Below the pieces are notes generated by a model. The model made no database searches. It worked only from the letters and a program-made list of their open reading frames with translations, and was not told where the DNA came from. From Escherichia coli (GTDB lineage Bacteria; Pseudomonadota; Gammaproteobacteria; Enterobacterales; Enterobacteriaceae), in the NCBI RefSeq assembly GCF_044324875.1, contig NZ_CP172185.1: DNA of 64,000 nucleotides, one strand, 5' to 3'. Below are positions 2,419 to 64,000 of the stretch, piece by piece; the first letter of the stretch is position 1, and every line of letters starts with the position of its first letter. The position numbers and the translations under genes are program-made.

Positions 2419-5323
<2,905 letters not shown>

Positions 5324-5421
5324 ACAACGCCGAAGATGTTTTGGCGGATGAGAGAAAGATTTTCAGCCTGATACAGATTAAATCGACAGGTCATAACGAG
5401 ACGTGTTGATAAAACAGAATT

Positions 5422-5541
5422 TGCCTGGCGGCCGTAGCGCGGTGGTCCCACCTGACCCCATGCCGAACTCAGAAGTGAAACGCCGTAGCGCCGATGGTAG
5501 TGTGGGGTCTCCCCATGCGAGAGTAGGGAACTGCCAGGCAT
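5422..5541 (+). rRNA. rrfG: 5S ribosomal RNA
   Basis: TGCCTGGCGGCCGTAGCGCGGTGG ... GGGAACTGCCAGGCAT, 120 nt. Confidence 0.95.
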
Positions 5542-5552
5542 CAAATTAAGCG

Positions 5553-5582
5553 AAAGGCCATCCGAAAGGATGGCCTTTTTGC
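5553..5582 (+). terminator. rrn operon terminator
   Basis: Hairpin AAGGCCATCCGAAAGGATGGCCTTTTT immediately after 5S. Confidence 0.8.
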
Positions 5583-5589
5583 ATTGGTG

Positions 5590-5632
5590 CAAAAAAATGC
5601 CGGATGCGACGCTGGCGCGTCTTATCCAGCTT
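5590..5632. repeat. REP-like palindromic unit
   Basis: GCCGGATGCGACGCTGGCGCGTCTTATCCAGC resembles the REP consensus. Confidence 0.5.
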
Positions 5633-5888
5633 ACGCAGGCACGATTGGGGGCAGCTTATTCCTCCACATACGCCAGCGAATACGGCTTCCCCAACTTGCT
5701 CACTTCCATATGTGTCCTCCTTACCAGAAATTTATCCTTAAGCTCCTCAATAACCATTTTCCTGCTAACTAAATTCATGGTTAAGGTTGCATAATGATAC
5801 GCAACAAATGTATAACATTTTCTTTACCAAAAAAAATAAACAACAGCGACCGACAAAAGCATCGGATTACGGCAGGAGATATAATGGC

Positions 5889-44430: not shown

Positions 44431-45621
44431 TCACAGCACCTTATGCGGACCAAAGCATTCGTAATGAATGTTTTCCTGCTTCACGCCCAGATCCACTAAC
44501 TGTTTCGCGGCAAACTGCATGAAGCCAACCGGGCCGCAGAGATAGAACTGCATTGTCGGATCGCTGAACGCACCTTCCAGTTTGCTCAAATCCATCAGAC
44601 CTTCGCTATCAAACTGACCTTTAGCGCGATCGGCTTCGCTCGGCTGACGATACCAGGTGTGCGCGGTAAAGCGCGGCAGTGCTTGCCCCAGTTCCTTAAC
44701 TTCATCGGCAAAGGCGTGAACATCGCCATTTTCTGCCGCATGGAACCAGTTCACTTGTGCTGTGTGGCCAGCTTTTGCCAGCGTGTCGAGCATTGCCAGC
44801 ATTGGCGTTTGACCGACACCGGCAGAGATTAACGTCACTGGTGTGTCATCTGCGACAGCCATAAAGAAATCACCTGCTGGAGCGACTAGTTTCACGACAT
44901 CGCCAACATTGGCGTGATTGTGCAGCCAGTTGGATACCTGCCCACCCTCTTCGCGTTTCACCGCAATACGATAGCCTTTGCCATCCGGTTTGCGAGTCAA
45001 AGAGTACTGACGAATTTCCTGATGCGGGAAACCTTCCGGCTTCAGCCAGACGCCGAGATATTGCCCCGGACGGTATTCTGCCACTGCGCCACCGTCGACC
45101 GGCTCCAGTTCGAAGCTGGTGATAAGCGCGCTGCGCGGTGTTTTAGCCACAATGTGGAAATCGCGAGTACCTTCCCAGCCACCGGCTTTGCTGGCGTTTT
45201 CGTTATAGATTTCCGCCTCGCGATTGATAAATACATTAGCCAGTACGCCATAGGCTTTACCCCACGCGTCCAGCACTTCCTGGCCCGGGCTGAACATTTC
45301 GTCCAGCGTCGCCAACAGGTGTTCACCGACAATGTTGTACTGTTCCGGTTTGATCTGGAAGCTGGTGTGCTTCTGCGCGATTTTTTCTACCGCTGGCAGC
45401 AGCGCAGGCAGGTTTTCAATATTACTGGCGTAGGCGGCAATAGCGTTAAACAGGGCTTCACGTTGATCGCCATTACGCTGGTTACTCATGTTAAAAATTT
45501 CTTTGAGTTCTGGGTTATGAGTAAACATACGGTCGTAGAAATGGGCGGTTAACTTTGGCCCCGTTTCCACCAGTAAAGGGATGGTGGCTTTTACTGTAGC
45601 GATGGTTTGAGCGTCAAGCAT
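44431..45621 (-). CDS. hmp: Flavohemoglobin (NO dioxygenase), 396 aa
   Basis: Globin N-domain plus FAD/NAD reductase domain; start at [11 protein letters not shown]. Confidence 0.95.
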
Positions 45622-45645
45622 ATGGTCTTCCTTTTTTTGCATCTT

Positions 45646-45670
45646 AATTGATGTATCTCAAATGCATCTT
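45646..45670. promoter_or_regulatory. NsrR operator in the hmp promoter
   Basis: AATTGATGTATCTCAAATGCATCTT is the reverse complement of an AAGATGCATTTGAGATACATCAATT-type NsrR site. Confidence 0.7.
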
Positions 45671-45948
45671 ATAAAAAATAGCCCTGCAATGTAAATGGTT
45701 CTTTGGTGTTTTTCAGAAAGAATGTGATGAAGTGAAAAATTTGCATCACAAACCTGAAAAGAAATCCGTTTCCGGTTGCAAGCTCTTTATTCTCCAAAGC
45801 CTTGCGCAGCCTGAAGGTAATCGTTTGCGTAAATTCCTTTGTCAAGACCTGTTATCGCACAATGATTCGGTTATACTGTTCGCCGTTGTCCAACAGGACC
45901 GCCTATAAAGGCCAAAAATTTTATTGTTAGCTGAGTCAGGAGATGCGG

Positions 45949-47202
45949 ATGTTAAAGCGTGAAATGAACATTGCCGATTATGATGCCGAACTGTGGCAGG
46001 CTATGGAGCAGGAAAAAGTACGTCAGGAAGAGCACATCGAACTGATCGCCTCCGAAAACTACACCAGCCCGCGCGTAATGCAGGCGCAGGGTTCTCAGCT
46101 GACCAACAAATATGCTGAAGGTTATCCGGGCAAACGCTACTACGGCGGTTGCGAGTATGTTGATATCGTTGAACAACTGGCGATCGATCGTGCGAAAGAA
46201 CTGTTCGGTGCTGACTACGCTAACGTCCAGCCGCACTCCGGCTCCCAGGCTAACTTTGCGGTGTACACCGCGCTGCTGGAACCAGGTGATACCGTTCTGG
46301 GTATGAACCTGGCGCATGGCGGTCACCTGACTCACGGTTCTCCGGTTAACTTCTCCGGTAAACTATACAACATCGTTCCTTACGGTATCGATGCTACCGG
46401 TCATATCGACTACGCCGATCTGGAAAAACAAGCCAAAGAACACAAACCGAAAATGATTATCGGTGGCTTCTCTGCATATTCCGGCGTGGTGGACTGGGCG
46501 AAAATGCGTGAAATCGCTGACAGCATCGGTGCTTACCTGTTCGTTGATATGGCGCACGTTGCGGGCCTGGTTGCAGCTGGCGTCTACCCGAACCCGGTTC
46601 CTCATGCTCACGTTGTTACTACCACCACTCACAAAACCCTGGCGGGTCCGCGCGGCGGCCTGATCCTGGCGAAAGGTGGTAGCGAAGAGCTGTACAAAAA
46701 ACTGAACTCTGCGGTTTTCCCTGGTGGTCAGGGTGGTCCGTTGATGCACGTAATCGCCGGTAAAGCGGTTGCTCTGAAAGAAGCGATGGAGCCTGAGTTC
46801 AAAACTTACCAGCAGCAGGTCGCTAAAAACGCTAAAGCGATGGTAGAAGTGTTCCTGGAACGCGGCTACAAAGTGGTTTCCGGCGGCACTGATAACCACC
46901 TGTTCCTGGTTGATCTGGTTGATAAAAACCTGACCGGTAAAGAAGCTGACGCCGCTCTGGGCCGTGCTAACATCACCGTCAACAAAAACAGCGTACCGAA
47001 CGATCCGAAGAGCCCGTTTGTGACCTCCGGTATTCGCGTGGGTACTCCGGCGATTACGCGTCGCGGCTTCAAAGAAGCAGAAGCGAAAGAACTGGCTGGC
47101 TGGATGTGTGACGTGCTGGACAGCATCAATGATGAAGCCGTTATCGAGCGCATCAAAGGTAAAGTTCTCGACATCTGTGCACGTTACCCGGTTTACGCAT
47201 AA
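45949..47202 (+). CDS. glyA: Serine hydroxymethyltransferase, 417 aa
   Basis: Start at [12 protein letters not shown]; PLP-lysine motif [14 protein letters not shown]. Confidence 0.95.
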
Positions 47203-47222
47203 GCGAAACGGTTAATCTGTTG

Positions 47223-47250
47223 AAAAAAGGCTTCCTTCGGGAAGCCTTTC
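47223..47250. terminator. Bidirectional terminator between glyA and yphH
   Basis: AAAAAAGGCTTCCTTCGGGAAGCCTTTC. Confidence 0.8.
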
Positions 47251-47265
47251 TACGTTATCGCGCCA

Positions 47266-48459
47266 TCAAATCTGCCGTAACTGCGCCTCAACATACAAAT
47301 AGCCAATTCCCAGTACCTGTTGTGCGCGGCTTAATTGCCCAAAGCCAATTTTCGTCGCTTTCACGCTCGGTCCTTCGTCGCGGTCGAACGGGTTAAATCC
47401 CGTCTGGCGAATAATGGTATTAAGCCAGTGCTCACCAAAGGCACAACTGCGACCGTACAACCAAATCTGATTAATATTGAGGATGTTGAGGAAGTTATAC
47501 AGACTCAAACCAATGGCATTGGCAGAGCGATCAACCCAGCTGGTGATCCACGGTTCTCCACTCTGCCAGGCAGCGATTAACTGCGCTGTTGTCAGTTTTT
47601 CAGGATCAAGCTGAGTATTAACCGGTTGTGATTTTAGCCATACCCGTGCCTGTTTTTTTAATGCACTTAACGAGGCGACGGTTTCCAGGCAGCCGTAACG
47701 TCCACAGTCGCAGACGACGCCATTCGGATTAACGATGGTGTGACCAATCTGTCCGCTACCATACAAACAGCCGCGATAAATTTGCTCGTTAATCACGAAC
47801 GACGAGCCAATACCGTAATCAACGTTGATCACGCAGAAATCCCGGCCCTGCGAATTATTTTGCCATTTCTCCGCCAGCGCCAGCATCACGCAGTCATTAT
47901 CGACCATCACCCGAATGCCGAGCTTCTCTTCCAGCAGATACTTCACCTCAACCGGCGTTGTCCACGGTGCTTGCGGCATGGTTTGCGACACGCCAGTCAC
48001 CGGATCAACCTGACCGTGGATTGCCAGCGCCAGGTTGATGGTACGGTCCGGCCACAATTTACGGTGGCGATGCCAGCATTTTTCGATTTCGGACAGCAGC
48101 GCCTGCGGCGTCGGTGCATCAATCTGTAAATACTCAAATTCGCCTTTCGGACTTAAACAGGCGTTAGCGACCTGACACTCAATACTGGTAGGCGTCACGT
48201 TCAGGCACAGCGTCCAGTCACCTTCCGGCGCAATCAGCCATGTACCGCTACTATGCCCGCGCGTCTGGCTTTCATCGTCGATATTCACCACCCGTTTTTC
48301 GCTTTCCAGTTCCTGCAAAATATTACTGACCGCCGGAATCGAAATTTGCGCCAGCCGGGCCAGGGTTGATTTATTGGCGCGCTTTTGCCGGTACAGCAGT
48401 TCCAGAATCACGCATTTGTTATGGTGGCGAATCTGTTGATTATTAATGCAGGCTCTCAT
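47266..48459 (-). CDS. yphH: ROK/NagC-family transcriptional regulator YphH, about 397 aa
   Basis: N-terminal HTH plus ROK sugar-kinase-like domain with Cys/His zinc motif; start uncertain. Confidence 0.8.
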   Translation of the reverse strand: MRACINNQQIRHHNKCVILELLYRQKRANKSTLARLAQISIPAVSNILQELESEKRVVNIDDESQTRGHSSGTWLIAPEGDWTLCLNVTPTSIECQVANACLSPKGEFEYLQIDAPTPQALLSEIEKCWHRHRKLWPDRTINLALAIHGQVDPVTGVSQTMPQAPWTTPVEVKYLLEEKLGIRVMVDNDCVMLALAEKWQNNSQGRDFCVINVDYGIGSSFVINEQIYRGCLYGSGQIGHTIVNPNGVVCDCGRYGCLETVASLSALKKQARVWLKSQPVNTQLDPEKLTTAQLIAAWQSGEPWITSWVDRSANAIGLSLYNFLNILNINQIWLYGRSCAFGEHWLNTIIRQTGFNPFDRDEGPSVKATKIGFGQLSRAQQVLGIGYLYVEAQLRQI

Positions 48460-48576
48460 CTTCACTAAACCTTGTTTAGTTAATTGCGTGATTATTCCGC
48501 GAAAACATTGCCAGATTGTTCAATACACTGCCACAAATCTTTTAATTCAGTATGTCTTGTTAATATTGAGGGCACC

Positions 48577-51500
48577 ATGACTCCAGTAAAAGTGTGGCAA
48601 GAGCGCGTTGAGATCCCGACCTATGAAACCGGGCCGCAGGATATACATCCCATGTTCTTGGAAAATCGCGTTTATCAGGGATCGTCCGGCGCGGTTTATC
48701 CCTACGGCGTGACCGATACGCTGAGCGAGCAGAAAACCCTGAAATCCTGGCAGGCGGTGTGGCTGGAAAACGACTACATCAAAGTGATGATCCTGCCGGA
48801 ACTGGGCGGTCGGGTGCATCGCGCGTGGGATAAAGTGAAACAGCGCGATTTTGTCTATCACAATGAAGTCATTAAACCGGCGCTGGTGGGGCTGCTGGGA
48901 CCGTGGATCTCCGGCGGGATTGAGTTTAACTGGCCGCAACACCATCGCCCGACCACCTTTATGCCCGTTGATTTCACCCTCGAAGCCCATGAAGACGGCG
49001 CACAAACCGTGTGGGTAGGCGAAACGGAGCCGATGCATGGTTTACAGGTGATGACAGGTTTCACCCTGCGCCCTGACCGGGCGGCGCTGGAAATCGCCAG
49101 CCGCGTCTATAACGGCAACGCCACGCCGCGTCATTTCTTGTGGTGGGCCAACCCGGCAGTGAAAGGGGGTGAAGGGCATCAGAGCGTCTTCCCGCCGGAT
49201 GTAACGGCGGTGTTTGATCACGGCAAACGGGCCGTCTCTGCTTTCCCCATCGCCACCGGCACTTACTACAAAGTGGACTACTCCGCCGGAGTGGACATTT
49301 CTCGCTATAAAAATGTGCCTGTTCCAACCTCATATATGGCTGAAAAATCACAGTACGATTTTGTTGGCGCGTGGTGTCACGATGAAGATGGCGGTTTGCT
49401 GCACGTTGCCAACCACCATATTGCGCCAGGTAAAAAACAGTGGAGCTGGGGACACAGTGAATTTGGCCAGGCGTGGGATAAGAGTCTGACCGACAATAAC
49501 GGCCCGTATATCGAACTGATGACCGGTATTTTTGCCGATAACCAGCCTGATTTTACCTGGCTTGATGCGTACGAAGAGAAGCGTTTCGAGCAGTATTTCC
49601 TGCCTTATCATTCTCTGGGCATGGTGCAAAATGCCTCCCGCGATGCGGTGATAAAACTCCAGCGTAGTGAGCGGGGGATTGAGTGGGGGCTGTATGCCAT
49701 CTCTCCGTTGAAAGGATACCGCCTGGCGATCCGCGAAATCGGCAAATGCAACGCGTTGCTCGATGATGCCGTGGCCCTGACACCAGCGACCGCCATCCAG
49801 GGCGTGTTGCACGGTATCAATCCTGAAAGGCTGACCATTGAACTCTCCGATGCCGACGGCAATATCATACTGAGTTATCAGGAACATCAGCCGCAAGAGC
49901 TGCCGTTGCCGGACGTCGCCAAAGCGCCACTGGCAGCACAAGACATTACCAGTACAGATGAAGCCTGGTTTATCGGTCAGCATCTGGAGCAATATCATCA
50001 CGCCAGCCGTTCACCGTTCGATTACTACCTGCGCGGCGTGGCGCTGGATCCGCTGGATTATCGCTGTAATCTGGCGCTGGCGATGCTGGAATATAACCGC
50101 GCCGATTTCCCGCAAGCGGTGGCGTATGCCACTCAGGCGCTGAAACGCGCACATGCGCTGAACAAAAATCCGCAGTGCGGACAGGCGAGCTTGATTCGCG
50201 CCAGTGCTTACGAACGTCAGGGGCAATATCAACAAGCCGAAGAGGATTTCTGGCGTGCGGTCTGGAGCGGCAACAGTAAAGCCGGTGGCTATTATGGTCT
50301 GGCACGGCTGGCGGCGCGTAATGGTCACGTCGACGCTGGTCTGGATTTTTGCCAACAAAGTCTTCGCGCCTGCCCAACCAATCAGGAAGTGCTTTGCCTG
50401 CATAATCTGCTGCTGGTGTTAAGTGGTCGTCAGGACAACGCGCGTTTGCAGCGTGAGAAACTGCTGCGTGATTATCCGCTGAACGCCACTCTGTGGTGGC
50501 TGAACTGGTTCGATGGTCGTAGCGAATCAGCCCTCGCGCAGTGGCGCGGTCTGTGTCAGGGACGCGACGTTAACGCCCTGATGACCGCCGGGCAACTGAT
50601 TAACTGGGGAATGCCCACCCTGGCGGCAGAGATGCTGAACGCACTGGACTGCCAGCGCACGCTGCCGCTTTATCTGCAGGCGAGTTTATTGCCGAAAGCT
50701 GAACGCGGCGAACTGGTCGCAAAAGCCATTGATGTCTTCCCACAGTTTGTCCGTTTCCCGAATACGCTGGAAGAAGTGGCGGCGCTGGAGAGTATTGAAG
50801 AGTGCTGGTTTGCCCGTCATTTACTGGCCTGCTTCTACTACAACAAGCGCAGCTACAACAAAGCCATTGCCTTATGGCAACGTTGCGTAGAGATGTCGCC
50901 GGAGTTTGCCGACGGCTGGCGCGGGTTAGCGATCCATGCGTGGAATAAGCAACACGATTATGAGCTGGCCGCGCGTTATCTTGATAATGCTTATCAGCTT
51001 GCGCCGCAGGATGCACGTCTGCTTTTCGAACGGGATTTGCTGGATAAGTTAAGTGGAGCCACACCGGAGAAACGACTGGCGCGTCTGGAAAATAATCTGG
51101 AAATTGCGCTGAAACGCGACGACATGACCGCAGAACTGCTCAATTTGTGGCATCTCACTGGTCAAGCAGACAAAGCGGCGGATATTCTCGCCACGCGCAA
51201 ATTCCACCCGTGGGAAGGCGGGGAAGGGAAGGTCACCAGTCAGTTTATCCTCAATCAGCTATTACGCGCCTGGCAGCACCTTGATGCCAGAGAGCCGCAG
51301 CAGGCCAGCGAACTGCTTCATGCCGCGCTGCATTATCCGGAAAATTTAAGCGAAGGCCGTTTACCCGGGCAAACTGATAACGACATCTGGTTCTGGCAGG
51401 CGATATGCGCTAACGCGCAGGGCGATGAAACTGAAGCGACGCGTTGTTTACGTCTGGCGGCGACCGGCGATCGCACCATTAACATTCACAGTTATTACAA

Positions 51501-51858
51501 CGATCAGCCGGTTGATTATCTCTTCTGGCAAGGAATGGCGCTGCGACTGCTGGGCGAACAACAAATCGCACAGCAACTGTTTAGTGAAATGAAACAGTGG
51601 GCGCAAGAGATGTCGAAAACCAGTATCGAGGCGGATTTCTTTGCTGTTTCACAACCTGACCTGTTGTCGCTGTATGGCGATTTACAACAGCAGCATAAAG
51701 AAAAATGCCTGATGGTGGCGATGCTGGCGTCCGCGGGACTAGGGGAGGTTGCGCAATATGAATCTGCTCGCGCTGAATTGACGGCGATTAATCCGGCCTG
51801 GCCGAAAGCAGCATTATTCACCACCGTGATGCCTTTTATTTTTAACCGCGTTCACTAA
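48577..51858 (+). CDS. yphG: Large uncharacterised protein YphG (about 1093 aa) with TPR-like C-terminal half
   Basis: Start placed at MTPVKVWQERVE; first gene of the yphGFEDCB cluster. Confidence 0.8.
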   Translation: MTPVKVWQERVEIPTYETGPQDIHPMFLENRVYQGSSGAVYPYGVTDTLSEQKTLKSWQAVWLENDYIKVMILPELGGRVHRAWDKVKQRDFVYHNEVIKPALVGLLGPWISGGIEFNWPQHHRPTTFMPVDFTLEAHEDGAQTVWVGETEPMHGLQVMTGFTLRPDRAALEIASRVYNGNATPRHFLWWANPAVKGGEGHQSVFPPDVTAVFDHGKRAVSAFPIATGTYYKVDYSAGVDISRYKNVPVPTSYMAEKSQYDFVGAWCHDEDGGLLHVANHHIAPGKKQWSWGHSEFGQAWDKSLTDNNGPYIELMTGIFADNQPDFTWLDAYEEKRFEQYFLPYHSLGMVQNASRDAVIKLQRSERGIEWGLYAISPLKGYRLAIREIGKCNALLDDAVALTPATAIQGVLHGINPERLTIELSDADGNIILSYQEHQPQELPLPDVAKAPLAAQDITSTDEAWFIGQHLEQYHHASRSPFDYYLRGVALDPLDYRCNLALAMLEYNRADFPQAVAYATQALKRAHALNKNPQCGQASLIRASAYERQGQYQQAEEDFWRAVWSGNSKAGGYYGLARLAARNGHVDAGLDFCQQSLRACPTNQEVLCLHNLLLVLSGRQDNARLQREKLLRDYPLNATLWWLNWFDGRSESALAQWRGLCQGRDVNALMTAGQLINWGMPTLAAEMLNALDCQRTLPLYLQASLLPKAERGELVAKAIDVFPQFVRFPNTLEEVAALESIEECWFARHLLACFYYNKRSYNKAIALWQRCVEMSPEFADGWRGLAIHAWNKQHDYELAARYLDNAYQLAPQDARLLFERDLLDKLSGATPEKRLARLENNLEIALKRDDMTAELLNLWHLTGQADKAADILATRKFHPWEGGEGKVTSQFILNQLLRAWQHLDAREPQQASELLHAALHYPENLSEGRLPGQTDNDIWFWQAICANAQGDETEATRCLRLAATGDRTINIHSYYNDQPVDYLFWQGMALRLLGEQQIAQQLFSEMKQWAQEMSKTSIEADFFAVSQPDLLSLYGDLQQQHKEKCLMVAMLASAGLGEVAQYESARAELTAINPAWPKAALFTTVMPFIFNRVH

Positions 51859-51954
51859 ACCTTATTAACTGTAATATTTGAGCGGCACGCGCTGCCGCTC
51901 ACGCTCAAATAATTAAAATAAGCCGTTGTAAATAAAAACCCTACAGGAGGTACT

Positions 51955-52938
51955 ATGCCTAAAAAAATGAGAACAACCCGTAATCTATTATTAATGGCTA
52001 CGCTATTAGGTAGCGCACTATTTGCCAGGGCTGCGGATAAAGAAATGACCATTGGCGCAATATACCTTGATACCCAGGGATATTACGCTGGTGTGCGTCA
52101 GGGCGTTCAGGATGCGGCAAAAGATTCTTCAGTACAGGTACAGTTAATTGAAACTAACGCCCAGGGTGATATTTCGAAAGAAAGTACCTTTGTTGATACC
52201 CTCGTGGCGCGTAATGTCGATGCCATTATTTTATCGGCAGTGTCTGAAAATGGCAGTAGCCGTACCGTTCGTCGCGCCAGTGAAGCGGGTATTCCGGTAA
52301 TTTGCTACAACACCTGTATTAATCAAAAAGGCGTCGATAAATATGTCTCGGCGTATCTGGTCGGCGATCCGCTGGAATTTGGTAAAAAACTGGGTAACGC
52401 TGCCGCCGATTATTTTATTGCCAACAAAATTGACCAGCCGAAAATTGCCGTCATCAATTGCGAAGCCTTTGAAGTTTGTGTGCAGCGCCGTAAAGGATTT
52501 GAAGAAGTATTAAAAATCCGTGTTCCCGGCGCGCAAATTGTCGCTAATCAGGAAGGGACTGTTTTAGATAAAGCGATTTCCGTTGGTGAAAAACTAATTA
52601 TCTCCACGCCGGATCTCAACGCCATTATGGGGGAATCGGGCGGTGCGACACTCGGCGCGGTAAAAGCGGTACGTAATCAAAATCAGACCGGAAAAATTGC
52701 TGTTTTCGGTTCGGATATGACCACTGAAATTGCTCAGGAGCTGGAAAACAATCAGGTGCTGAAAGCGGTGGTGGATATTTCCGGTAAGAAAATGGGCAAT
52801 GCTGTTTTCGCGCAAACTTTGAAGGTTATCAATAAACAAGCCGACGGTGAAAAAGTGATTCAGGTGCCTATCGATCTCTATACCAAAACGGAAGACGGTA
52901 AACAGTGGCTGGCAACGCACGTTGATGGTCTGCCCTAA
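51955..52938 (+). CDS. yphF: ABC transporter periplasmic sugar-binding protein, 327 aa
   Basis: Signal peptide; RbsB-like periplasmic binding fold. Confidence 0.85.
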   Translation: MPKKMRTTRNLLLMATLLGSALFARAADKEMTIGAIYLDTQGYYAGVRQGVQDAAKDSSVQVQLIETNAQGDISKESTFVDTLVARNVDAIILSAVSENGSSRTVRRASEAGIPVICYNTCINQKGVDKYVSAYLVGDPLEFGKKLGNAAADYFIANKIDQPKIAVINCEAFEVCVQRRKGFEEVLKIRVPGAQIVANQEGTVLDKAISVGEKLIISTPDLNAIMGESGGATLGAVKAVRNQNQTGKIAVFGSDMTTEIAQELENNQVLKAVVDISGKKMGNAVFAQTLKVINKQADGEKVIQVPIDLYTKTEDGKQWLATHVDGLP

Positions 52939-52960
52939 TCGCTGATTCGCAGAGGTCCCT

Positions 52961-54472
52961 ATGTTCACGGCAACAGAGGCAGTCCCGGTAGCAATAGTGG
53001 TAGCTGGAAATAAGCGTTATCCCGGCGTCGTTGCGCTGGATAACGTTAACTTCACGCTCAATAAAGGAGAAGTTCGTGCGCTGTTAGGCAAAAACGGCGC
53101 GGGCAAATCGACCCTCATTCGAATGCTTACCGGCAGTGAACGTCCGGATAGCGGTGATATCTGGATTGGCGAGACGCGACTGGAAGGTGACGAAGCTACG
53201 TTGACTCGCCGTGCCGCTGAACTGGGGGTTCGTGCGGTTTATCAGGAGTTAAGTCTGGTGGAGGGACTGACGGTGGCGGAAAACCTCTGCCTCGGTCAGT
53301 GGCCCCGCCGCAACGGCATGATTGATTACCTGCAAATGGCGCAGGATGCCCAACGTTGCTTACAGGCGCTGGGCGTTGACGTTAGCCCTGAACAACTTGT
53401 TTCAACGCTAAGCCCGGCGCAAAAGCAACTGGTGGAAATTGCGCGGGTGATGAAGGGCGAGCCGCGCGTGGTCATTCTTGATGAACCTACCAGTTCGCTT
53501 GCCAGTGCGGAAGTTGAACTGGTGATCAGCGCGGTTAAAAAGATGTCGGCACTGGGCGTGGCGGTGATTTATGTCAGCCACCGGATGGAAGAAATCCGCC
53601 GCATTGCCTCCTGTGCCACCGTTATGCGCGATGGTCAGGTAGCGGGCGATGTGATGCTCGAAAACACCTCCACGCATCATATTGTGTCGCTAATGCTCGG
53701 GCGCGATCACGTTGATATTGCGCCGGTTTCCCCTCAGGAAATTGTCGATCAGGCTGTGCTGGAAGTCCGTGCGTTACGCCATAAGCCCAAGCTGGAGGAT
53801 ATCAGCTTTACGCTCCGTCGTGGCGAAGTGCTCGGCATTGCTGGCCTGCTGGGGGCAGGGCGCAGTGAATTGTTGAAAGCCATAGTTGGGCTGGAGACGT
53901 ATGAACAGGGCGAAATTGTTATCAACGGCGAGAAAATCACGCGCCCCGATTACGGCGACATGCTGAAACGCGGCATTGGCTATACGCCAGAAAACCGCAA
54001 AGAAGCGGGGATCATTCCCTGGCTGGGCGTTGACGAAAATACAGTGCTGACCAATCGGCAAAAAATCAGCGCCAACGGTGTGCTGCAATGGTCCACCATC
54101 CGCCGCCTGACCGAAGAGGTGATGCAGCGGATGACGGTCAAGGCCGCCAGTAGCGAAACGCCCATCGGCACGCTTTCTGGCGGCAATCAGCAAAAAGTGG
54201 TGATCGGTCGTTGGGTCTATGCCGCCAGCCAGATTTTGTTGCTCGACGAGCCAACGCGTGGCGTCGATATCGAAGCCAAACAGCAGATTTACCGTATTGT
54301 CCGCGAGCTGGCTGCCGAAGGAAAAAGTGTGGTGTTTATCTCCAGTGAAGTGGAGGAGTTGCCGCTGGTGTGTGACCGCATCCTGTTATTACAGCACGGT
54401 ACGTTCTCGCAGGAGTTTCACTCGCCGGTCAATGTGGATGAGCTGATGTCCGCCATTCTGTCTGTGCACTGA
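52961..54472 (+). CDS. yphE: ABC transporter ATP-binding protein with two ABC domains, 503 aa
   Basis: Two Walker A motifs (GKNGAGKST, GLLGAGRSE) and signature LSGGNQQK. Confidence 0.9.
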   Translation: MFTATEAVPVAIVVAGNKRYPGVVALDNVNFTLNKGEVRALLGKNGAGKSTLIRMLTGSERPDSGDIWIGETRLEGDEATLTRRAAELGVRAVYQELSLVEGLTVAENLCLGQWPRRNGMIDYLQMAQDAQRCLQALGVDVSPEQLVSTLSPAQKQLVEIARVMKGEPRVVILDEPTSSLASAEVELVISAVKKMSALGVAVIYVSHRMEEIRRIASCATVMRDGQVAGDVMLENTSTHHIVSLMLGRDHVDIAPVSPQEIVDQAVLEVRALRHKPKLEDISFTLRRGEVLGIAGLLGAGRSELLKAIVGLETYEQGEIVINGEKITRPDYGDMLKRGIGYTPENRKEAGIIPWLGVDENTVLTNRQKISANGVLQWSTIRRLTEEVMQRMTVKAASSETPIGTLSGGNQQKVVIGRWVYAASQILLLDEPTRGVDIEAKQQIYRIVRELAAEGKSVVFISSEVEELPLVCDRILLLQHGTFSQEFHSPVNVDELMSAILSVH

Positions 54473-54496
54473 TGAATTTTACCGAGGAACCTGAAG

Positions 54497-55495
54497 ATGT
54501 CTGCTTCGTCATTACCATTGCCGCAGGGCAAGAGCGTCTCGCTCAAACAATTTGTCAGTCGCCATATTAATGAGATCGGTTTGCTGGTGGTGATCGCCAT
54601 TCTTTATCTGGTCTTCTCCCTGAACGCGCCGGGCTTTATCTCATTGAATAACCAGATGAACGTGCTGCGCGATGCCGCCACCATTGGGATTGCCGCCTGG
54701 GCGATGACGCTGATTATTATCTCCGGTGAAATTGATGTCAGCGTTGGGCCGATGGTGGCTTTTGTCTCGGTGTGCCTGGCATTTTTGCTGCAATTTGAAG
54801 TTCCGCTGGCGGTGGCGTGTCTGCTGGTGTTGCTGTTAGGCGCGCTGATGGGAACGCTGGCCGGGGTGCTGCGCGGCGTGTTTAACGTACCAAGTTTCGT
54901 TGCCACACTGGGGCTGTGGAGCGCCCTGCGCGGAATGGGGCTGTTTATGACCAACGCCCTGCCAGTGCCGATTGACGAAAACGAGGTACTGGACTGGCTG
55001 GGTGGACAATTTCTCGGAGTGCCGGTATCCGCGCTGATCATGATGGTGTTGTTTGCGCTGTTTGTGTTCATCAGCCGCAAAACCGCCTTCGGGCGCTCGG
55101 TTTTTGCTGTTGGCGGTAATGCCACTGCAGCACAGTTGTGCGGCATCAACGTTCGTCGGGTGCGCATTCTTATCTTTACCCTTTCGGGATTATTAGCGGC
55201 GGTGACCGGCATTTTGTTGGCGGCGCGCCTCGGTTCCGGTAACGCAGGTGCCGCAAACGGTCTGGAGTTTGACGTCATCGCCGCGGTCGTGGTCGGTGGT
55301 ACGGCACTTTCCGGCGGTCGCGGTTCCCTGTTTGGTACATTGCTTGGTGTGTTGGTGATTACGCTAATCGGTAACGGTCTGGTGCTGCTCGGGATTAACT
55401 CCTTTTTCCAGCAGGTGGTGCGCGGCGTCATCATCGTGGTGGCGGTGCTGGCGAATATCTTGCTGACTCAGCGAAGCAGTAAAGCGAAACGCTAA
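54497..55495 (+). CDS. yphD: ABC transporter permease (RbsC-like), 332 aa
   Basis: Polytopic membrane protein downstream of yphE. Confidence 0.85.
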   Translation: MSASSLPLPQGKSVSLKQFVSRHINEIGLLVVIAILYLVFSLNAPGFISLNNQMNVLRDAATIGIAAWAMTLIIISGEIDVSVGPMVAFVSVCLAFLLQFEVPLAVACLLVLLLGALMGTLAGVLRGVFNVPSFVATLGLWSALRGMGLFMTNALPVPIDENEVLDWLGGQFLGVPVSALIMMVLFALFVFISRKTAFGRSVFAVGGNATAAQLCGINVRRVRILIFTLSGLLAAVTGILLAARLGSGNAGAANGLEFDVIAAVVVGGTALSGGRGSLFGTLLGVLVITLIGNGLVLLGINSFFQQVVRGVIIVVAVLANILLTQRSSKAKR

Positions 55496-55560
55496 ACCTA
55501 AACGCCCCTGGCGCGGGTGCGGCAGGGATGAAAATTAATCGTATTGTTAATGAGGGATTT

Positions 55561-56622
55561 ATGAAAACGATGCTGGCAGCTTATTTACCAGGAAATTCGA
55601 CCGTCGATCTGCGGGAAGTTGCGGTGCCGACGCCGGGGATTAACCAGGTACTGATCAAAATGAAATCCTCCGGGATTTGCGGAAGTGATGTCCACTATAT
55701 CTATCATCAACACCGTGCCACGGCAGCGGCACCCGATAAACCGTTATACCAGGGATTTATCAACGGTCATGAACCGTGCGGGCAGATTGTGGCGATGGGG
55801 CAAGGCTGCCGCCATTTTAAAGAGGGCGACCGCGTGCTGGTGTATCACATTTCTGGCTGTGGTTTTTGCCCGAACTGCCGCCGCGGCTTTCCTATCTCTT
55901 GTACTGGCAAAGGAAAAGCGGCTTACGGCTGGCAGCGTGACGGCGGTCATGCCGAATACCTGCTGGCGGAAGAAAAAGATCTGATCCTGCTCCCGGACGC
56001 GCTGAGCTATGAAGATGGTGCGTTTATCAGTTGCGGCGTTGGTACAGCGTATGAAGGGATTTTGCGCGGCGAAGTTTCCGGCAGTGATAACGTGCTGGTG
56101 GTCGGTCTGGGGCCGGTCGGCATGATGGCGATGATGCTGGCGAAAGGTCGCGGTGCAAAAAGGATCATCGGCGTTGATATGCTGCCGGAACGTCTGGCGA
56201 TGGCGAAACAGTTAGGGGTGATGGATCATGGCTATTTAGCAACGACCGAAGGTCTGCCGCAGATTATCGCCGAACTTACCCACGGTGGCGCGGATGTTGC
56301 GCTCGATTGTTCCGGTAATGCCGCAGGTCGCTTACTGGCGTTGCAATCCACTGCTGACTGGGGACGGGTGGTTTACATCGGAGAAACCGGAAAAGTGGAG
56401 TTCGAGGTTAGCGCCGATCTGATGCATCATCAACGGCGGATTATTGGCTCCTGGGTGACCAGTCTGTTCCATATGGAAAAATGCGCCCACGATTTAACGG
56501 ACTGGAAACTGTGGCCGCGTAATGCCATTACCCATCGCTTCACGCTGGAACAGGCAGGAGATGCCTATGCGCTGATGGCGAGCGGTAAATGCGGGAAAGT
56601 TGTGATTAACTTCCCGGATTAA
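55561..56622 (+). CDS. yphC: Zn-dependent alcohol/polyol dehydrogenase family protein, 353 aa
   Basis: GHEPCG zinc motif; Rossmann motif GLGPVG. Confidence 0.85.
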   Translation: MKTMLAAYLPGNSTVDLREVAVPTPGINQVLIKMKSSGICGSDVHYIYHQHRATAAAPDKPLYQGFINGHEPCGQIVAMGQGCRHFKEGDRVLVYHISGCGFCPNCRRGFPISCTGKGKAAYGWQRDGGHAEYLLAEEKDLILLPDALSYEDGAFISCGVGTAYEGILRGEVSGSDNVLVVGLGPVGMMAMMLAKGRGAKRIIGVDMLPERLAMAKQLGVMDHGYLATTEGLPQIIAELTHGGADVALDCSGNAAGRLLALQSTADWGRVVYIGETGKVEFEVSADLMHHQRRIIGSWVTSLFHMEKCAHDLTDWKLWPRNAITHRFTLEQAGDAYALMASGKCGKVVINFPD

Positions 56623-56633
56623 GGAGTCAGCGG

Positions 56634-57505
56634 ATGACCATCTATACGTTATCTCACGGGCCGCTAGAGCTGGACGTTTCTGACCGGGGCGGTGTCATCG
56701 AAGGCTTCTGGCGTGACGCGACGCCGCTCTTACGTCCCGGTAAAAAAAGCGGTGTGGCAACCGATGCCTCTTGTTTTCCGCTGGTGCCGTTTGCAAACCG
56801 GGTGAGCGGCAATCGTTTTGTCTGGCAGGGGCGTGAGTATCAACTGCAACCGAATGTTGAGTGGGATGCGCACTATCTGCACGGCGACGGCTGGCTGGGG
56901 CAGTGGCAATGTGTCTCGCGCAGCGAAGATAGCTTGTGTCTGGTGTATGAACATCGCAGCGGTGTTTATCACTATCGGGTAAGTCAGGCGTTTCATTTAA
57001 CGGCAGATACGCTGACGGTGACGCTCTCTGTCACCAATCAAGGGACAGAGACGCTGCCATTTGGTACCGGCTGGCATCCTTATTTTCCGTTGTCACCACA
57101 AACGCGGATTCAGGCGCAGGCGAGCGGTTACTGGCTGGAGCGGGAGCAGTGGCTGGCGGGTGAGTTTTCGAGCAGCTACCGCAGGAGCTGGATTTCAACC
57201 AGCTCGCGCCGTTGCCGCACCAGTGGGTGAACAATGGCTTTGCCGGATGGAATGGTCAGGCCCGCATCGAGCAGCCGCAGGAGGGTTATGCCATCATCAT
57301 GGAAACGACGCCACCTGCACCATGTTATTTCATCTTTGTTTCCGACCCGGCGTTTGATAAAGGATATGCGTTTGATTTCTTCTGTCTGGAACCGATGAGC
57401 CATGCGCCGGATGACCATCATCGCCCGGAAGGGGGTGATCTCATTGCGCTTGCACCAGGGGAATCAACAACTTCAGAGATGTCGTTGCGGGTTGCGTTAC
57501 TGTAA
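56634..57505 (+). pseudogene. yphB: Aldose 1-epimerase-family gene yphB, apparently frameshifted
   Basis: 872 nt from start to stop, not a multiple of 3; N-terminal frame ends at 57230, C-terminal frame continues from about 57164 to 57505; frame switch maps to the TTTT run at 57165-57168. Confidence 0.6.
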
Positions 57506-57513
57506 TTTATAAA

Positions 57514-57531
57514 ATGCCGGATAAGGCGTTC
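57514..57531. repeat. Left half of a REP palindromic unit split by the IS insertion
   Basis: ATGCCGGATAAGGCGTTC; the right half ACGCCGCATCCGGCAT lies at 58957-58972. Confidence 0.7.
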
Positions 57532-58439
<908 letters not shown>

Positions 58440-58987
58440 TCCAGGAGATGCTCCTGCATGGCTTTCAGATATGCATTTTCTGCGCGAAGATAACGCAGCT
58501 CATTCTTCATCTCTTCCGGCGTCATGTTTGCCTCGTTTTCATGGGTATCATCAGAACGGGTCATGCTTTTCTCCTTCCAGCGCCTGATAAAGGCCTCATT
58601 ACCAGATTTGCGGTAGCCTTTTATCCAGTTTTTAACCGTGTTGTGGCTGGGAATGTTAAACCGGGCAGCTACCCGGGGTAGAGACTCAGAATGCCCGAGA
58701 GCATAAAGAACCACGCAAAGTTTATCTTCAGGAGAATAGCTACGCTTGTGTCTGCAATCCAGTGCCCGAGGACCGTGAAGAAGAAAAAGATTAATCCAGT
58801 GTGAGAGGCTGGTGTGAGAAAGTTGAAAGAGTTTTGCCGTAGAAATGATGCCTGCATGACCGGCCAGGTAATGATTTACAGCGGCAAGTTTTACTTCAAA
58901 TGAATGTTTCATAAACTGCACCTTCAGATGTCAGATTATGTCCAACATTTGGGGTGCAGTTCATTCACGCCGCATCCGGCATCTTTC

Positions 58988-59410
58988 CTAACGCCGATCG
59001 AGAGAAATTGCCCCCGGCCCGGTAATTGCCAACAGCAGGAATGCGCCAGCGATACTGACATTCTTCCAGAAATTAATCATATTTGGCCCAACCGCATCGC
59101 CGGTCATATCCCAGTAATGGTGACCAATTACCGCTGTACCCAGCGTGTAGAAAATAAACAGCACCGCCAGCGGACGGGTGAAAAAGCCAAGCACGATTAA
59201 TATCGCGGCGGGCACTTCCATAACTACCGCAATAATCGCTGCCAGCATCGGCATTGGCGCGCCCAGCGAGGCCATATATTGGACCGTACCGTCAAAGCCC
59301 ATCATTTTGGGAAAACCAAAAATAATGAAAATTAAGACCACGGCGATACGGGCAATTAATAACAAAACGGGGCGTGCAGCACCAAAATCAAAATAACGTA
59401 GTGTGTTCAT
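58988..59410 (-). CDS. yphA: DoxX-family inner membrane protein YphA, 140 aa
   Basis: Start at [14 protein letters not shown]; hydrophobic throughout. Confidence 0.8.
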
Positions 59411-59506
59411 AACCAATCCCTTTGCAAGATAATGTGATTTAAACGTAATACACACTCTTGCACCTCGCCACGCCCCAGGCATTGAGATATTCGCTAATTA
59501 TCCTGG

Positions 59507-60718
<1,212 letters not shown>

Positions 60719-61531
60719 TTAAAGATCCAGCCCAGCCGCTACGTGGCGAATGCCGCGAATCGCTAAACCCGCATCAGCGTTGATCATCACACCGCTTAAT
60801 GCGCGATTATTGCGCCGCGATGCCAACATCACATACGGACCCGTAAAATCCGCCGGTTGCGGGAAAAATTGCAGCGGTAAAATGGCGGCAATTTTCTCCG
60901 GCGTCAGAGACTGCATTATCGAGGTTTCACTTTGCCCGAGCGCCTGTGGGCCGCGCAGGTCGCTGGCCATACCACACGGGCCGACGCCATTCACCCGCAC
61001 TTTCGGTGCCAGTTCATAAGCCAGTTGGCGAATAAGTCCGGTTGCGGCATGTTTACTGGCGGTGTACAGCGGGCCACCGCCGCCGGGATACCAGGCGGCA
61101 TTTGACAGTGTGAAAATCATGCTGCCTTCACTGGCGATTAACGCCGGAGCGCAGGCTTTTGCGCCCAGCAGGTAACCGAGTACGTTGACGTTAAACAGCT
61201 CGTGGAAGCCAGTTTCGAGCGTCTCTGCGGGAGTATTAACCAGTGAGGCATTGTGATCCCAGATGCCCGCATTGCCGATAAAACAATCCAGCTTGCCAGA
61301 ACGAGTCAGGATCTGATCGACCGCGCGTTGATAATCGGCATAGCAGGTCACGTTACCTTCCACCGCCAGAATATGTTCGCCAAATCGCTGACGCAGACTG
61401 GCGACTTTTGCCGCCGACAGTTCCAGCGTGGCAACCTGCGCGCCTTCTTCGATAAATCGCTCGACCAGCGCCAGGCCTAATCCCGATCCGCCGCCGGTAA
61501 TAAAGATGGACTCGTTATGCAGATCGCTCAT
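60719..61531 (-). CDS. hcaB: cis-dihydrodiol dehydrogenase (SDR family), 270 aa
   Basis: TGGGSGLG Rossmann motif; YxxxK active site. Confidence 0.9.
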
Positions 61532-61847
61532 GGCTGCGCCTCCGGTAAGTCGATGAAGATGTCACCACCTTCAACGTGTACTGGATAAGTGGTTAGCGGA
61601 TCGGTGGCGGGCAGGCATAACGCTTTCCCCGTTTTCAGGCAAAAACTGGCGGCGTGCAGCGGGCACTCCACCGTGGCGTCATCTTCCAGATACCCTTCTG
61701 ACATCGACGCATTACCATGGCTGCAACGATCGTTAATGGCATAAAACTCGCCGCCTACGTTGAACAGGGCGATGACGGGCGAGGTATCGATCCGGAGAGC
61801 CTCACCCTCCGGCACATCCGCAACGGGACACGCATAAATTCGATTCA

Positions 61848-61848
<1 letters not shown>
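61528..61848 (-). CDS. hcaC: Rieske-type ferredoxin, 106 aa
   Basis: CSH...CPLH Rieske motifs. Confidence 0.9.
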
Positions 61849-63760
<1,912 letters not shown>

Positions 63761-63859
63761 CTATTTTTGTGCCATAAGGATGTTGCTGGTTGGTTGCTAA
63801 TATGTGAAATAGTTAATTTCTACCAGCTGAGACGTTTTTTCGATAACAAGGGGAAGGTG

Positions 63860-64000
63860 ATGGAACTACGGCATTTACGCTATTTCGTCGCAGTGGCGCA
63901 GGCACTGAACTTTACCCGTGCGGCGGAAAAACTGCATACCTCACAGCCTTCGTTAAGCAGCCAGATCCGCGATCTTGAAAACTGTATCGGTGTTCCGTTG
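63860..64000 (+). CDS. hcaR: LysR-family regulator HcaR, N-terminal 47 codons (3' part outside window)
   Basis: [40 protein letters not shown] is a LysR HTH; divergent from hcaE. Confidence 0.85.

What the first reader, a model, noticed from the sequence alone, without database searches (positions are those of the whole stretch)
57150..57230. yphB (aldose 1-epimerase family) is frameshifted
The distance from the yphB start (56634) to its stop (57505) is 872 nt, one short of a multiple of three. The N-terminal reading frame terminates at 57230 (...AGEFSSSYRRSWISTSSRRCRTSG*), while the conserved C-terminal half is in another frame (...QLPQELDFNQLAPLPHQWVNNGF...). The two frames can only be joined across the T4 run at 57165-57168, consistent with a 1-nt deletion at a homopolymer. 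This is either a genuine pseudogene in this strain or a homopolymer sequencing error.
Basis: partly seen in the sequence, partly recalled or inferred. Interest (0 to 1): 0.45.

Follow-up and report, generated by a model that had tools for sequence, protein, structure and literature searches.

The report
Real one-base deletion inactivating yphB
This E. coli strain has lost a single G inside yphB, a sugar mutarotase-family gene of unknown substrate, which truncates the enzyme; the lesion appears to be real and not a sequencing error, but it is an ordinary strain-specific pseudogene.

Summary
yphB (56634-57505, +) is 872 nt, against 873 nt in the other E. coli genomes examined. The N-terminal frame stops at 57230, and the conserved C-terminal part continues in another frame to 57505.

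The proposed cause is wrong in one detail. The T4 run (57165-57168) is T4 in the intact alleles too. The missing base is the lone G that follows it (c.536delG, between 57168 and 57169; Cys179Ser, then 19 more aberrant residues and a stop).

A sequencing artefact is unlikely:
- The lost base is not in a homopolymer.
- All 53 other K-12 genes lying wholly in the window align without any indel or internal stop.
- A contig assembled independently from raw reads (Logan, SRR31072984; also found in a second sample) is 100% identical to the window over 10,927 nt, deletion included.

None of 5,045 RefSeq complete E. coli genomes with a match at the site carries the deletion. The gene differs from its closest intact allele by one synonymous substitution, so the lesion is recent.

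The 198-aa product keeps the two catalytic-motif histidines. It loses the catalytic-motif glutamate and about 39% of the single aldose-1-epimerase domain, so I predict loss of function. yphB is the last gene of its operon, so no polar effect is expected.

This is an ordinary finding of low interest.

The parts
56634..57230 (+). Truncated yphB reading frame. It has 178 native codons, then 20 aberrant codons (SSSYRRSWISTSSRRCRTSG) and a TGA stop. It starts 11 nt after the yphC stop, behind an AGGAG Shine-Dalgarno sequence.
57168..57169 (+). Lesion site. A single G, present between these two bases in intact yphB alleles (nt 536 of the 873-nt gene, codon 179 TGC), is missing. The T4 run just upstream (57165-57168) is unchanged.
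57170..57505 (+). Out-of-frame remnant of yphB, native codons 180-290. It holds the CLEP motif with the presumed catalytic Glu253. A gene caller makes a 92-aa ORF from GTG 57227, which overlaps the upstream TGA stop (GTGA).
48577..56622 (+). Upstream genes of the same operon, yphG, yphF, yphE, yphD and yphC. All are the same length as in K-12, with no gap and no internal stop.
57532..58963 (-). IS1397 (IS3 family, 1432 bp), with orfA and orfB open. It sits in the loop of the REP/palindromic unit between yphB and yphA, flanked by a duplicated TTC (57529-57531 and 58964-58966). It is not the cause of the yphB lesion: it lies 26 nt past the stop codon.

Best explanation
A genuine, recent, strain- or clone-specific single-base deletion (c.536delG) has turned yphB into a pseudogene.

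The ribosome starts normally at 56634 and reads 178 native codons. It then runs 20 codons out of frame and stops at 57230.

The 198-aa product keeps the two conserved histidines of the mutarotase active site (His83 in LHG, His148 in GWHPYF). It lacks residues 179-290, that is 112 of 290 residues of a single beta-sandwich domain, including Glu253 of the CLEP motif. It should therefore be inactive and probably unstable.

yphB is the last gene of the yphGFEDCB operon and is followed by the convergent yphA. No downstream gene should be affected.

- Shown: the deletion, its uniqueness among the genomes searched, its presence in an independent read-derived assembly, and the loss of the C-terminal part of the domain.
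- Inferred: loss of enzyme activity, and the catalytic roles of His83, His148 and Glu253, which rest on motif alignment to GalM and on established knowledge of galactose mutarotase.
For: **The lesion**
- One gap, a G after an unchanged T4 run, in the alignment to intact alleles from AST215 and K-12. The same single gap appears against NZ_OZ547136.1.
- Putting the G back gives a 290-aa protein identical to the AST215 YphB.

**Not an indel-prone assembly**
- 53 of 53 other K-12 CDS lying wholly in the window align with 0 gaps and 0 internal stops.
- 25,000 nt of the window align to 25,000 nt of the best genome.

**Read-level support**
- The exact 198-aa product exists in Logan assemblies of sequencing runs.
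- Contig SRR31072984_108 (42 kb, seen in 2 samples) is 100.000% identical to window 46634-57560, with 0 gaps.
- That contig stops 29 nt into IS1397, which is what I would expect of a short-read graph assembly breaking at a repeat.

**Rarity and age**
- The best of 5,045 RefSeq genomes with a match across the site is 99.0%, so none carries the deletion.
- The gene is present in 5,389 of 5,426 genomes.
- It differs by one synonymous substitution from the nearest intact allele.

**Consequence**
- Pfam Aldose_epim covers residues 3-285 as one domain.
- The protein matches PDB 3NRE, the K-12 YphB structure.
- The His motifs align to E. coli GalM, and the CLEP motif lies after the break.
Against: - I could not see read pile-ups or the metadata of the two sequencing runs. 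They may be the very reads from which the window was assembled, or the same culture. They exclude an assembly or polishing error and most platform errors. They do not exclude a mutation that arose in the laboratory stock.
- No expression or activity data exist for this strain.
- The substrate of YphB is unknown, so 'loss of function' cannot be tied to a phenotype.
- Other public assemblies show assorted yphB frameshifts. At least one of them (GCA_016586875.1) has several split genes, which shows that such calls can be artefacts in poor assemblies.
Confidence: 0.9

Rival explanations
1. Sequencing or assembly artefact. The strain really has an intact 873-nt yphB, and one G was dropped in the consensus.
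For: - A single-base deletion is the commonest kind of consensus error.
- It lies next to a short T run.
- No other genome in RefSeq shares it.
- Some public assemblies do show clearly artefactual split genes in this region, for example L009 with yphD and hcaB also split.
Against: - The lost base is a lone G, not part of a homopolymer.
- There are 0 indels in 53 other genes of the window.
- A de novo contig from raw reads of SRR31072984, also seen in a second sample, reproduces the deletion within 10,927 identical bases.
Confidence: 0.06
2. The gene is still functional. Either ribosomes shift frame to restore the full-length enzyme, or the 198-aa N-fragment and a re-initiated 92-aa C-fragment (GTG 57227 overlapping TGA 57228-57230) assemble into an active split enzyme.
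For: - The GTGA overlap of stop and start is the kind of arrangement that permits termination-reinitiation.
- A gene caller does call the 92-aa ORF.
Against: - There is no X_XXY_YYZ slippery heptamer anywhere in the 57164-57227 zone where both frames are open, and no run longer than T4.
- The frameshift is not conserved. Sampled orthologues are 873 nt and no RefSeq genome matches across the site without the gap.
- Native residues 179-198 would be missing from both fragments, in the middle of a single beta-sandwich domain.
- No Shine-Dalgarno sequence precedes GTG 57227.
Confidence: 0.03

Closest known systems
E. coli K-12 YphB (b2544; crystal structure PDB 3NRE), aldose 1-epimerase / mutarotase family PF01263
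   Same: - It is the orthologue in the same position: last gene after yphG-F-E-D-C, convergent with yphA.
- It is 95.3% identical at DNA level.
- The repaired protein differs from K-12 at 12 of 290 residues.
- It gives a full-length Pfam match.
   Different: - The window's copy lacks nt 536 (G).
- It encodes only residues 1-178 in frame.
- The C-terminal 112 residues, with the CLEP glutamate, are out of frame.
Sporadic frameshift pseudogenes of non-essential genes in E. coli isolates
   Same: - It is a single inactivating lesion in an otherwise undecayed gene.
- Close relatives have the intact gene.
- Other isolates carry different, independent yphB lesions: delC547, delA506, delG509, delT532, delT572, a 7-nt and a 10-nt deletion.
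   Different: Nothing of substance. This allele (delG536) was found only in the window and in two sequencing runs.
IS1397, an IS3-family element that targets REP/palindromic units
   Same: - The neighbouring element is 1432 bp and lies in the loop of the yphB-yphA palindromic unit, with a 3-bp duplication.
- RefSeq annotates the same element at the same site in other strains.
   Different: It lies outside the yphB coding sequence and does not explain the frameshift.

Membership tests
Aldose 1-epimerase (mutarotase) family, PF01263 | Full-length match to the family profile | tested here: met
   The repaired 290-aa protein gives PF01263 E=4.9e-52, residues 3-285 on model positions 2-298 of 299. 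The ORF actually encoded covers only the first 178 of these residues.
Aldose 1-epimerase (mutarotase) family, PF01263 | Conserved active-site histidines (GalM His104/His175 equivalents) | tested here: met
   His83 (LHG) and His148 (GWHPYF) are invariant in the alignment with E. coli GalM. Their catalytic role is taken from established GalM biochemistry and was not tested here.
Aldose 1-epimerase (mutarotase) family, PF01263 | Catalytic glutamate (GalM Glu309 equivalent) present in the translated product | tested here: not met
   The CLEP motif (Glu253) lies downstream of the frameshift and is not in the 198-aa product. It is still present in the DNA, out of frame. The exact equivalence to GalM Glu309 rests on motif similarity, because the MAFFT alignment places it 2 columns off.
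Aldose 1-epimerase (mutarotase) family, PF01263 | Mutarotase activity on a defined sugar | not testable with these tools
   The literature held here gave no substrate for YphB.
Frameshift pseudogene | An indel that is not a multiple of 3 relative to intact orthologues, causing a premature stop | tested here: met
   872 nt against 873 nt, a single G gap, and a stop at 57230.
Frameshift pseudogene | The lesion is real in the DNA and is not a consensus error | tested here: met
   An independent read-derived Logan contig is identical, deletion included, and 53 neighbouring genes have no indels. Read pile-ups themselves were not available.
Programmed ribosomal frameshift / recoding | Slippery heptamer or long homopolymer at the frame junction | tested here: not met
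   No X_XXY_YYZ heptamer in 57158-57230, and the longest run is T4.
Programmed ribosomal frameshift / recoding | The frameshift is conserved among orthologues | tested here: not met
   The best of 5,045 RefSeq matches across the site is 99.0%, i.e. with the gap. In a spread sample, 59 of 59 full-length places are 873 nt.

The most novel reading that the evidence does not exclude
yphB may be a recurrent target of inactivation in E. coli. At least nine independent indel alleles occur within about 100 nt, on different allelic backgrounds, in public data. That could mean loss of this mutarotase is selected for in some niche, and the window's clone would be one instance. The present evidence does not distinguish this from the background mutation rate across the very large number of sequenced E. 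coli. The gene is present in 99.3% of complete RefSeq genomes, and it was full-length in every one of those sampled.
Probability: 0.05. Interest if true: 0.35.

Novelty: already known. Interest (0 to 1): 0.07.

Why it matters
It matters little beyond annotation.
- yphB should be annotated as a frameshifted pseudogene in this genome. It should not be annotated as two hypothetical proteins, nor silently 'repaired'.
- The lesion can serve as a clone-specific marker, because it was found only in this sequence and in two sequencing runs.
- YphB's substrate is unknown. A natural null allele in an otherwise intact yph operon could be a convenient strain for testing what the operon does, but that is a modest benefit.

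Tried and rejected
- **Homopolymer contraction.** Rejected: T4 is unchanged and a lone G is lost.
- **Indel-prone assembly.** Rejected: 0 gaps in 53 other CDS, and only one other 1-nt difference, intergenic at 58963, over 19 kb against the closest genome.
- **Allele shared with a known lineage.** No exact match among complete RefSeq E. coli.
- **Disruption by the neighbouring IS1397.** Rejected: the element starts 26 nt after the stop codon.
- **Programmed frameshifting.** No slippery site.
- **Literature on yphB and the yph operon.** Only a mention of PDB 3NRE in a sulfoquinovose mutarotase paper (PMC5902678). No paper holds three or more yph gene names.
- **Searches not run.** I did not scan metagenome or species-representative collections for the junction. 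The exact-protein look-up in the much larger Logan/NCBI/ENA index already answered whether the allele occurs elsewhere.

Full report
**1. The observation**

The window holds an ORF at 56634-57230 (+) of 198 aa, ending ...AGEFSSSYRRSWISTSSRRCRTSG*. Translating 57101-57505 in the frame that ends at 57505 gives ...G*VFEQLPQELDFNQLAPLPHQWVNNGF...SLRVALL*. Start to stop is 872 nt.

**2. Identity of the gene**

A megablast of 56634-57505 against 5,426 complete RefSeq E. coli genomes finds the locus in 5,389 of them. Every listed match is annotated 'yphB: aldose 1-epimerase', and the listed best matches span 873 nt.

The window is collinear with the K-12 region from rrnG to hcaR. The order is yphG-F-E-D-C-B on one strand, followed by the convergent yphA.

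**3. The lesion**

I aligned the window's gene with the intact alleles of strain AST215 and of K-12. There is exactly one gap:
- Reference: ...GGTGAGTTTTGCGAGCAG...
- Window: ...GGTGAGTTTT-CGAGCAG...

The T-run is T4 in all three sequences. The missing base is the single G that follows it, nt 536 of the gene, between window 57168 and 57169. An alignment with a third genome (NZ_OZ547136.1) puts the gap at the same place.

In protein terms the change is Cys179Ser, then 19 more aberrant residues and a stop.

Re-inserting the G gives a 290-aa protein identical to the AST215 YphB. It differs from K-12 YphB at 12 residues.

**4. Real mutation or artefact?**

Three independent lines point to a real mutation.

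- *The base lost.* It is not part of a homopolymer.
- *The quality of the assembly.* Each of the other 53 K-12 protein-coding genes lying wholly within the window aligns full length, with 0 gaps and no internal stop; the tiny yfiS gave no hit and hcaR is cut by the window end. Over 19 kb, the only other length difference from the closest RefSeq genome is 1 nt in the intergenic stretch at the end of IS1397. 25,000 nt of the window align to exactly 25,000 nt of the best genome there.
- *Independent reads.* The exact 198-aa product is on record in Logan assemblies of public sequencing runs.
  - The contig SRR31072984_108 is 42 kb and the same contig occurs in a second sample. It is 100.000% identical to window 46634-57560 over 10,927 nt, with no gap.
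  - It ends 29 nt inside IS1397. That is what a k-mer graph assembly of accurate short reads does at a multi-copy repeat (my inference).
  - This shows that the sample also shares the IS insertion.

I could not inspect read pile-ups or run metadata. The runs may come from the same isolate. They rule out an assembly or polishing error, but not a mutation that arose in a laboratory stock.

**5. How common is it?**

A 100-nt probe across the site matches 5,045 RefSeq genomes. The best identity is 99.0%, which corresponds to the gap, so none of them carries the deletion. In a spread sample of the ranking, 59 of 59 full-length yphB places are exactly 873 nt.

The gene is therefore near-universal and normally intact. 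This allele is private to the window's clone.

Apart from the deletion, the gene differs from the nearest intact allele by one substitution (GGC to GGT, synonymous). The lesion is evolutionarily recent, and nothing else has decayed.

**6. Other yphB lesions in public data**

I looked up the 92-aa C-terminal ORF that gene callers make from such alleles. It is carried by 14 contigs, of which 10 places were shown. Nine of these were new loci (L013 is the window's own contig). Aligning them to the intact allele shows different lesions on different backgrounds:
- delC547
- delA506
- delG509
- delT532, which is a true T-run contraction and occurs in 3 samples
- delT572, on two different backgrounds
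- a 7-nt deletion
- a 10-nt deletion
- one scaffold gap of Ns

One of these assemblies (GCA_016586875.1) also has yphD and hcaB split, and looks error-prone.

Given the very large number of E. coli assemblies indexed, this scatter is what background mutation and occasional errors would give. I do not read it as evidence of selection, though that is not excluded.

**7. Consequence for the protein**

- The repaired protein matches Pfam Aldose_epim over residues 3-285 as one domain (E=4.9e-52).
- It matches the crystal structure of K-12 YphB, PDB 3NRE (E=1e-200; also cited in PMC5902678).
- In an alignment with E. coli GalM, His83 (LHG) and His148 (GWHPYF) are conserved. By established GalM biochemistry these are the active-site histidines. 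This assignment comes from my own knowledge of the family and was not tested here.
- The glutamate of the CLEP motif (Glu253) corresponds by motif to the catalytic base of galactose mutarotases. It lies after the break.
- The 198-aa product therefore lacks 112 of 290 residues of a single beta-sandwich domain, including that residue. I infer that it is inactive.

The gene keeps its AGGAG ribosome-binding site, 11 nt after the yphC stop. The truncated protein is probably still made, and then degraded.

yphB is the last gene of the operon, and the upstream genes are intact. No polar effect is expected.

**8. Rescue mechanisms considered**

Restoring the frame would need a -1 shift between 57164 and 57227. 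No X_XXY_YYZ heptamer exists there, and the longest homopolymer is T4. The frameshift is not conserved among orthologues.

The GTG at 57227 overlaps the TGA stop (GTGA), so re-initiation of a 92-aa fragment is conceivable. However, native residues 179-198 would be absent from both pieces, and no Shine-Dalgarno sequence precedes the GTG. I rate functional rescue at about 3%.

**9. Surroundings**

An IS1397 lies 26 nt after the yphB stop.
- It is 1432 bp (57532-58963), with the transposase on the minus strand and both reading frames open.
- It sits in the loop of the REP/palindromic unit that fills the K-12 yphB-yphA spacer. The arrangement is GCCGGATAAGGCGTTC | IS | TTCACGCCGCATCCGGC, with TTC duplicated.
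- The same site is occupied by an annotated 'IS3-like element IS1397 family transposase' in several RefSeq genomes that have an intact yphB.

The insertion and the frameshift are therefore unrelated events.

**10. Comparison with what is known, and verdict**

The gene is the orthologue of K-12 yphB, a structurally solved member of the aldose-1-epimerase family whose substrate I could not find in the literature held here. The feature is a strain-specific frameshift pseudogene, which is a well-known and common kind of thing.

The finding is real, and its location was right. Its proposed cause (homopolymer) is wrong in detail, and the 'genuine pseudogene' alternative is strongly favoured (about 0.9). 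It is an ordinary finding and I score interest at 0.07.

Noticed in passing
window 57529-58966: IS1397 (1432 bp, minus strand, orfA and orfB open) is inserted in the loop of the REP/palindromic unit between yphB and yphA, with a TTC target duplication. Some RefSeq E. coli genomes that have an intact yphB carry it at the same site.
   Followed up: yes
L007-L016 (public contigs), yphB nt 475-572: At least eight other, independent yphB indel alleles exist in public assemblies, on different allelic backgrounds. They include a true T-run contraction (delT532, SRR10614236, 3 samples) and delT572 on two backgrounds. I did not establish whether this exceeds background.
   Followed up: partly
L009 (GCA_016586875.1) 273-1269 and 5058-5868: This assembly has yphD and hcaB each split into two ORFs, in addition to yphB. 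That suggests an indel-prone assembly rather than real pseudogenes.
   Followed up: no
window 58963: There is a one-base difference from NZ_OZ547136.1, which has one more G here (G4 in the window), at the terminal inverted repeat of IS1397. The window's G4 mirrors the C4 at the other end of the element.
   Followed up: partly
window 20000-64000: No complete RefSeq E. coli genome is near-identical to the window. The best is 99.8% over 20000-44999 (an O158:H23 strain) and only 98.7% over 45000-64000. Yet yphB itself is one substitution, plus the deletion, from strain AST215. The region looks mosaic, from a sparsely sampled lineage.
   Followed up: partly
window 55528-56622: The yphC ORF is open for 364 aa from an upstream ATG. 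Some RefSeq genomes annotate it that way, while K-12 annotates 353 aa from a later start. This is a start-site annotation difference only.
   Followed up: no
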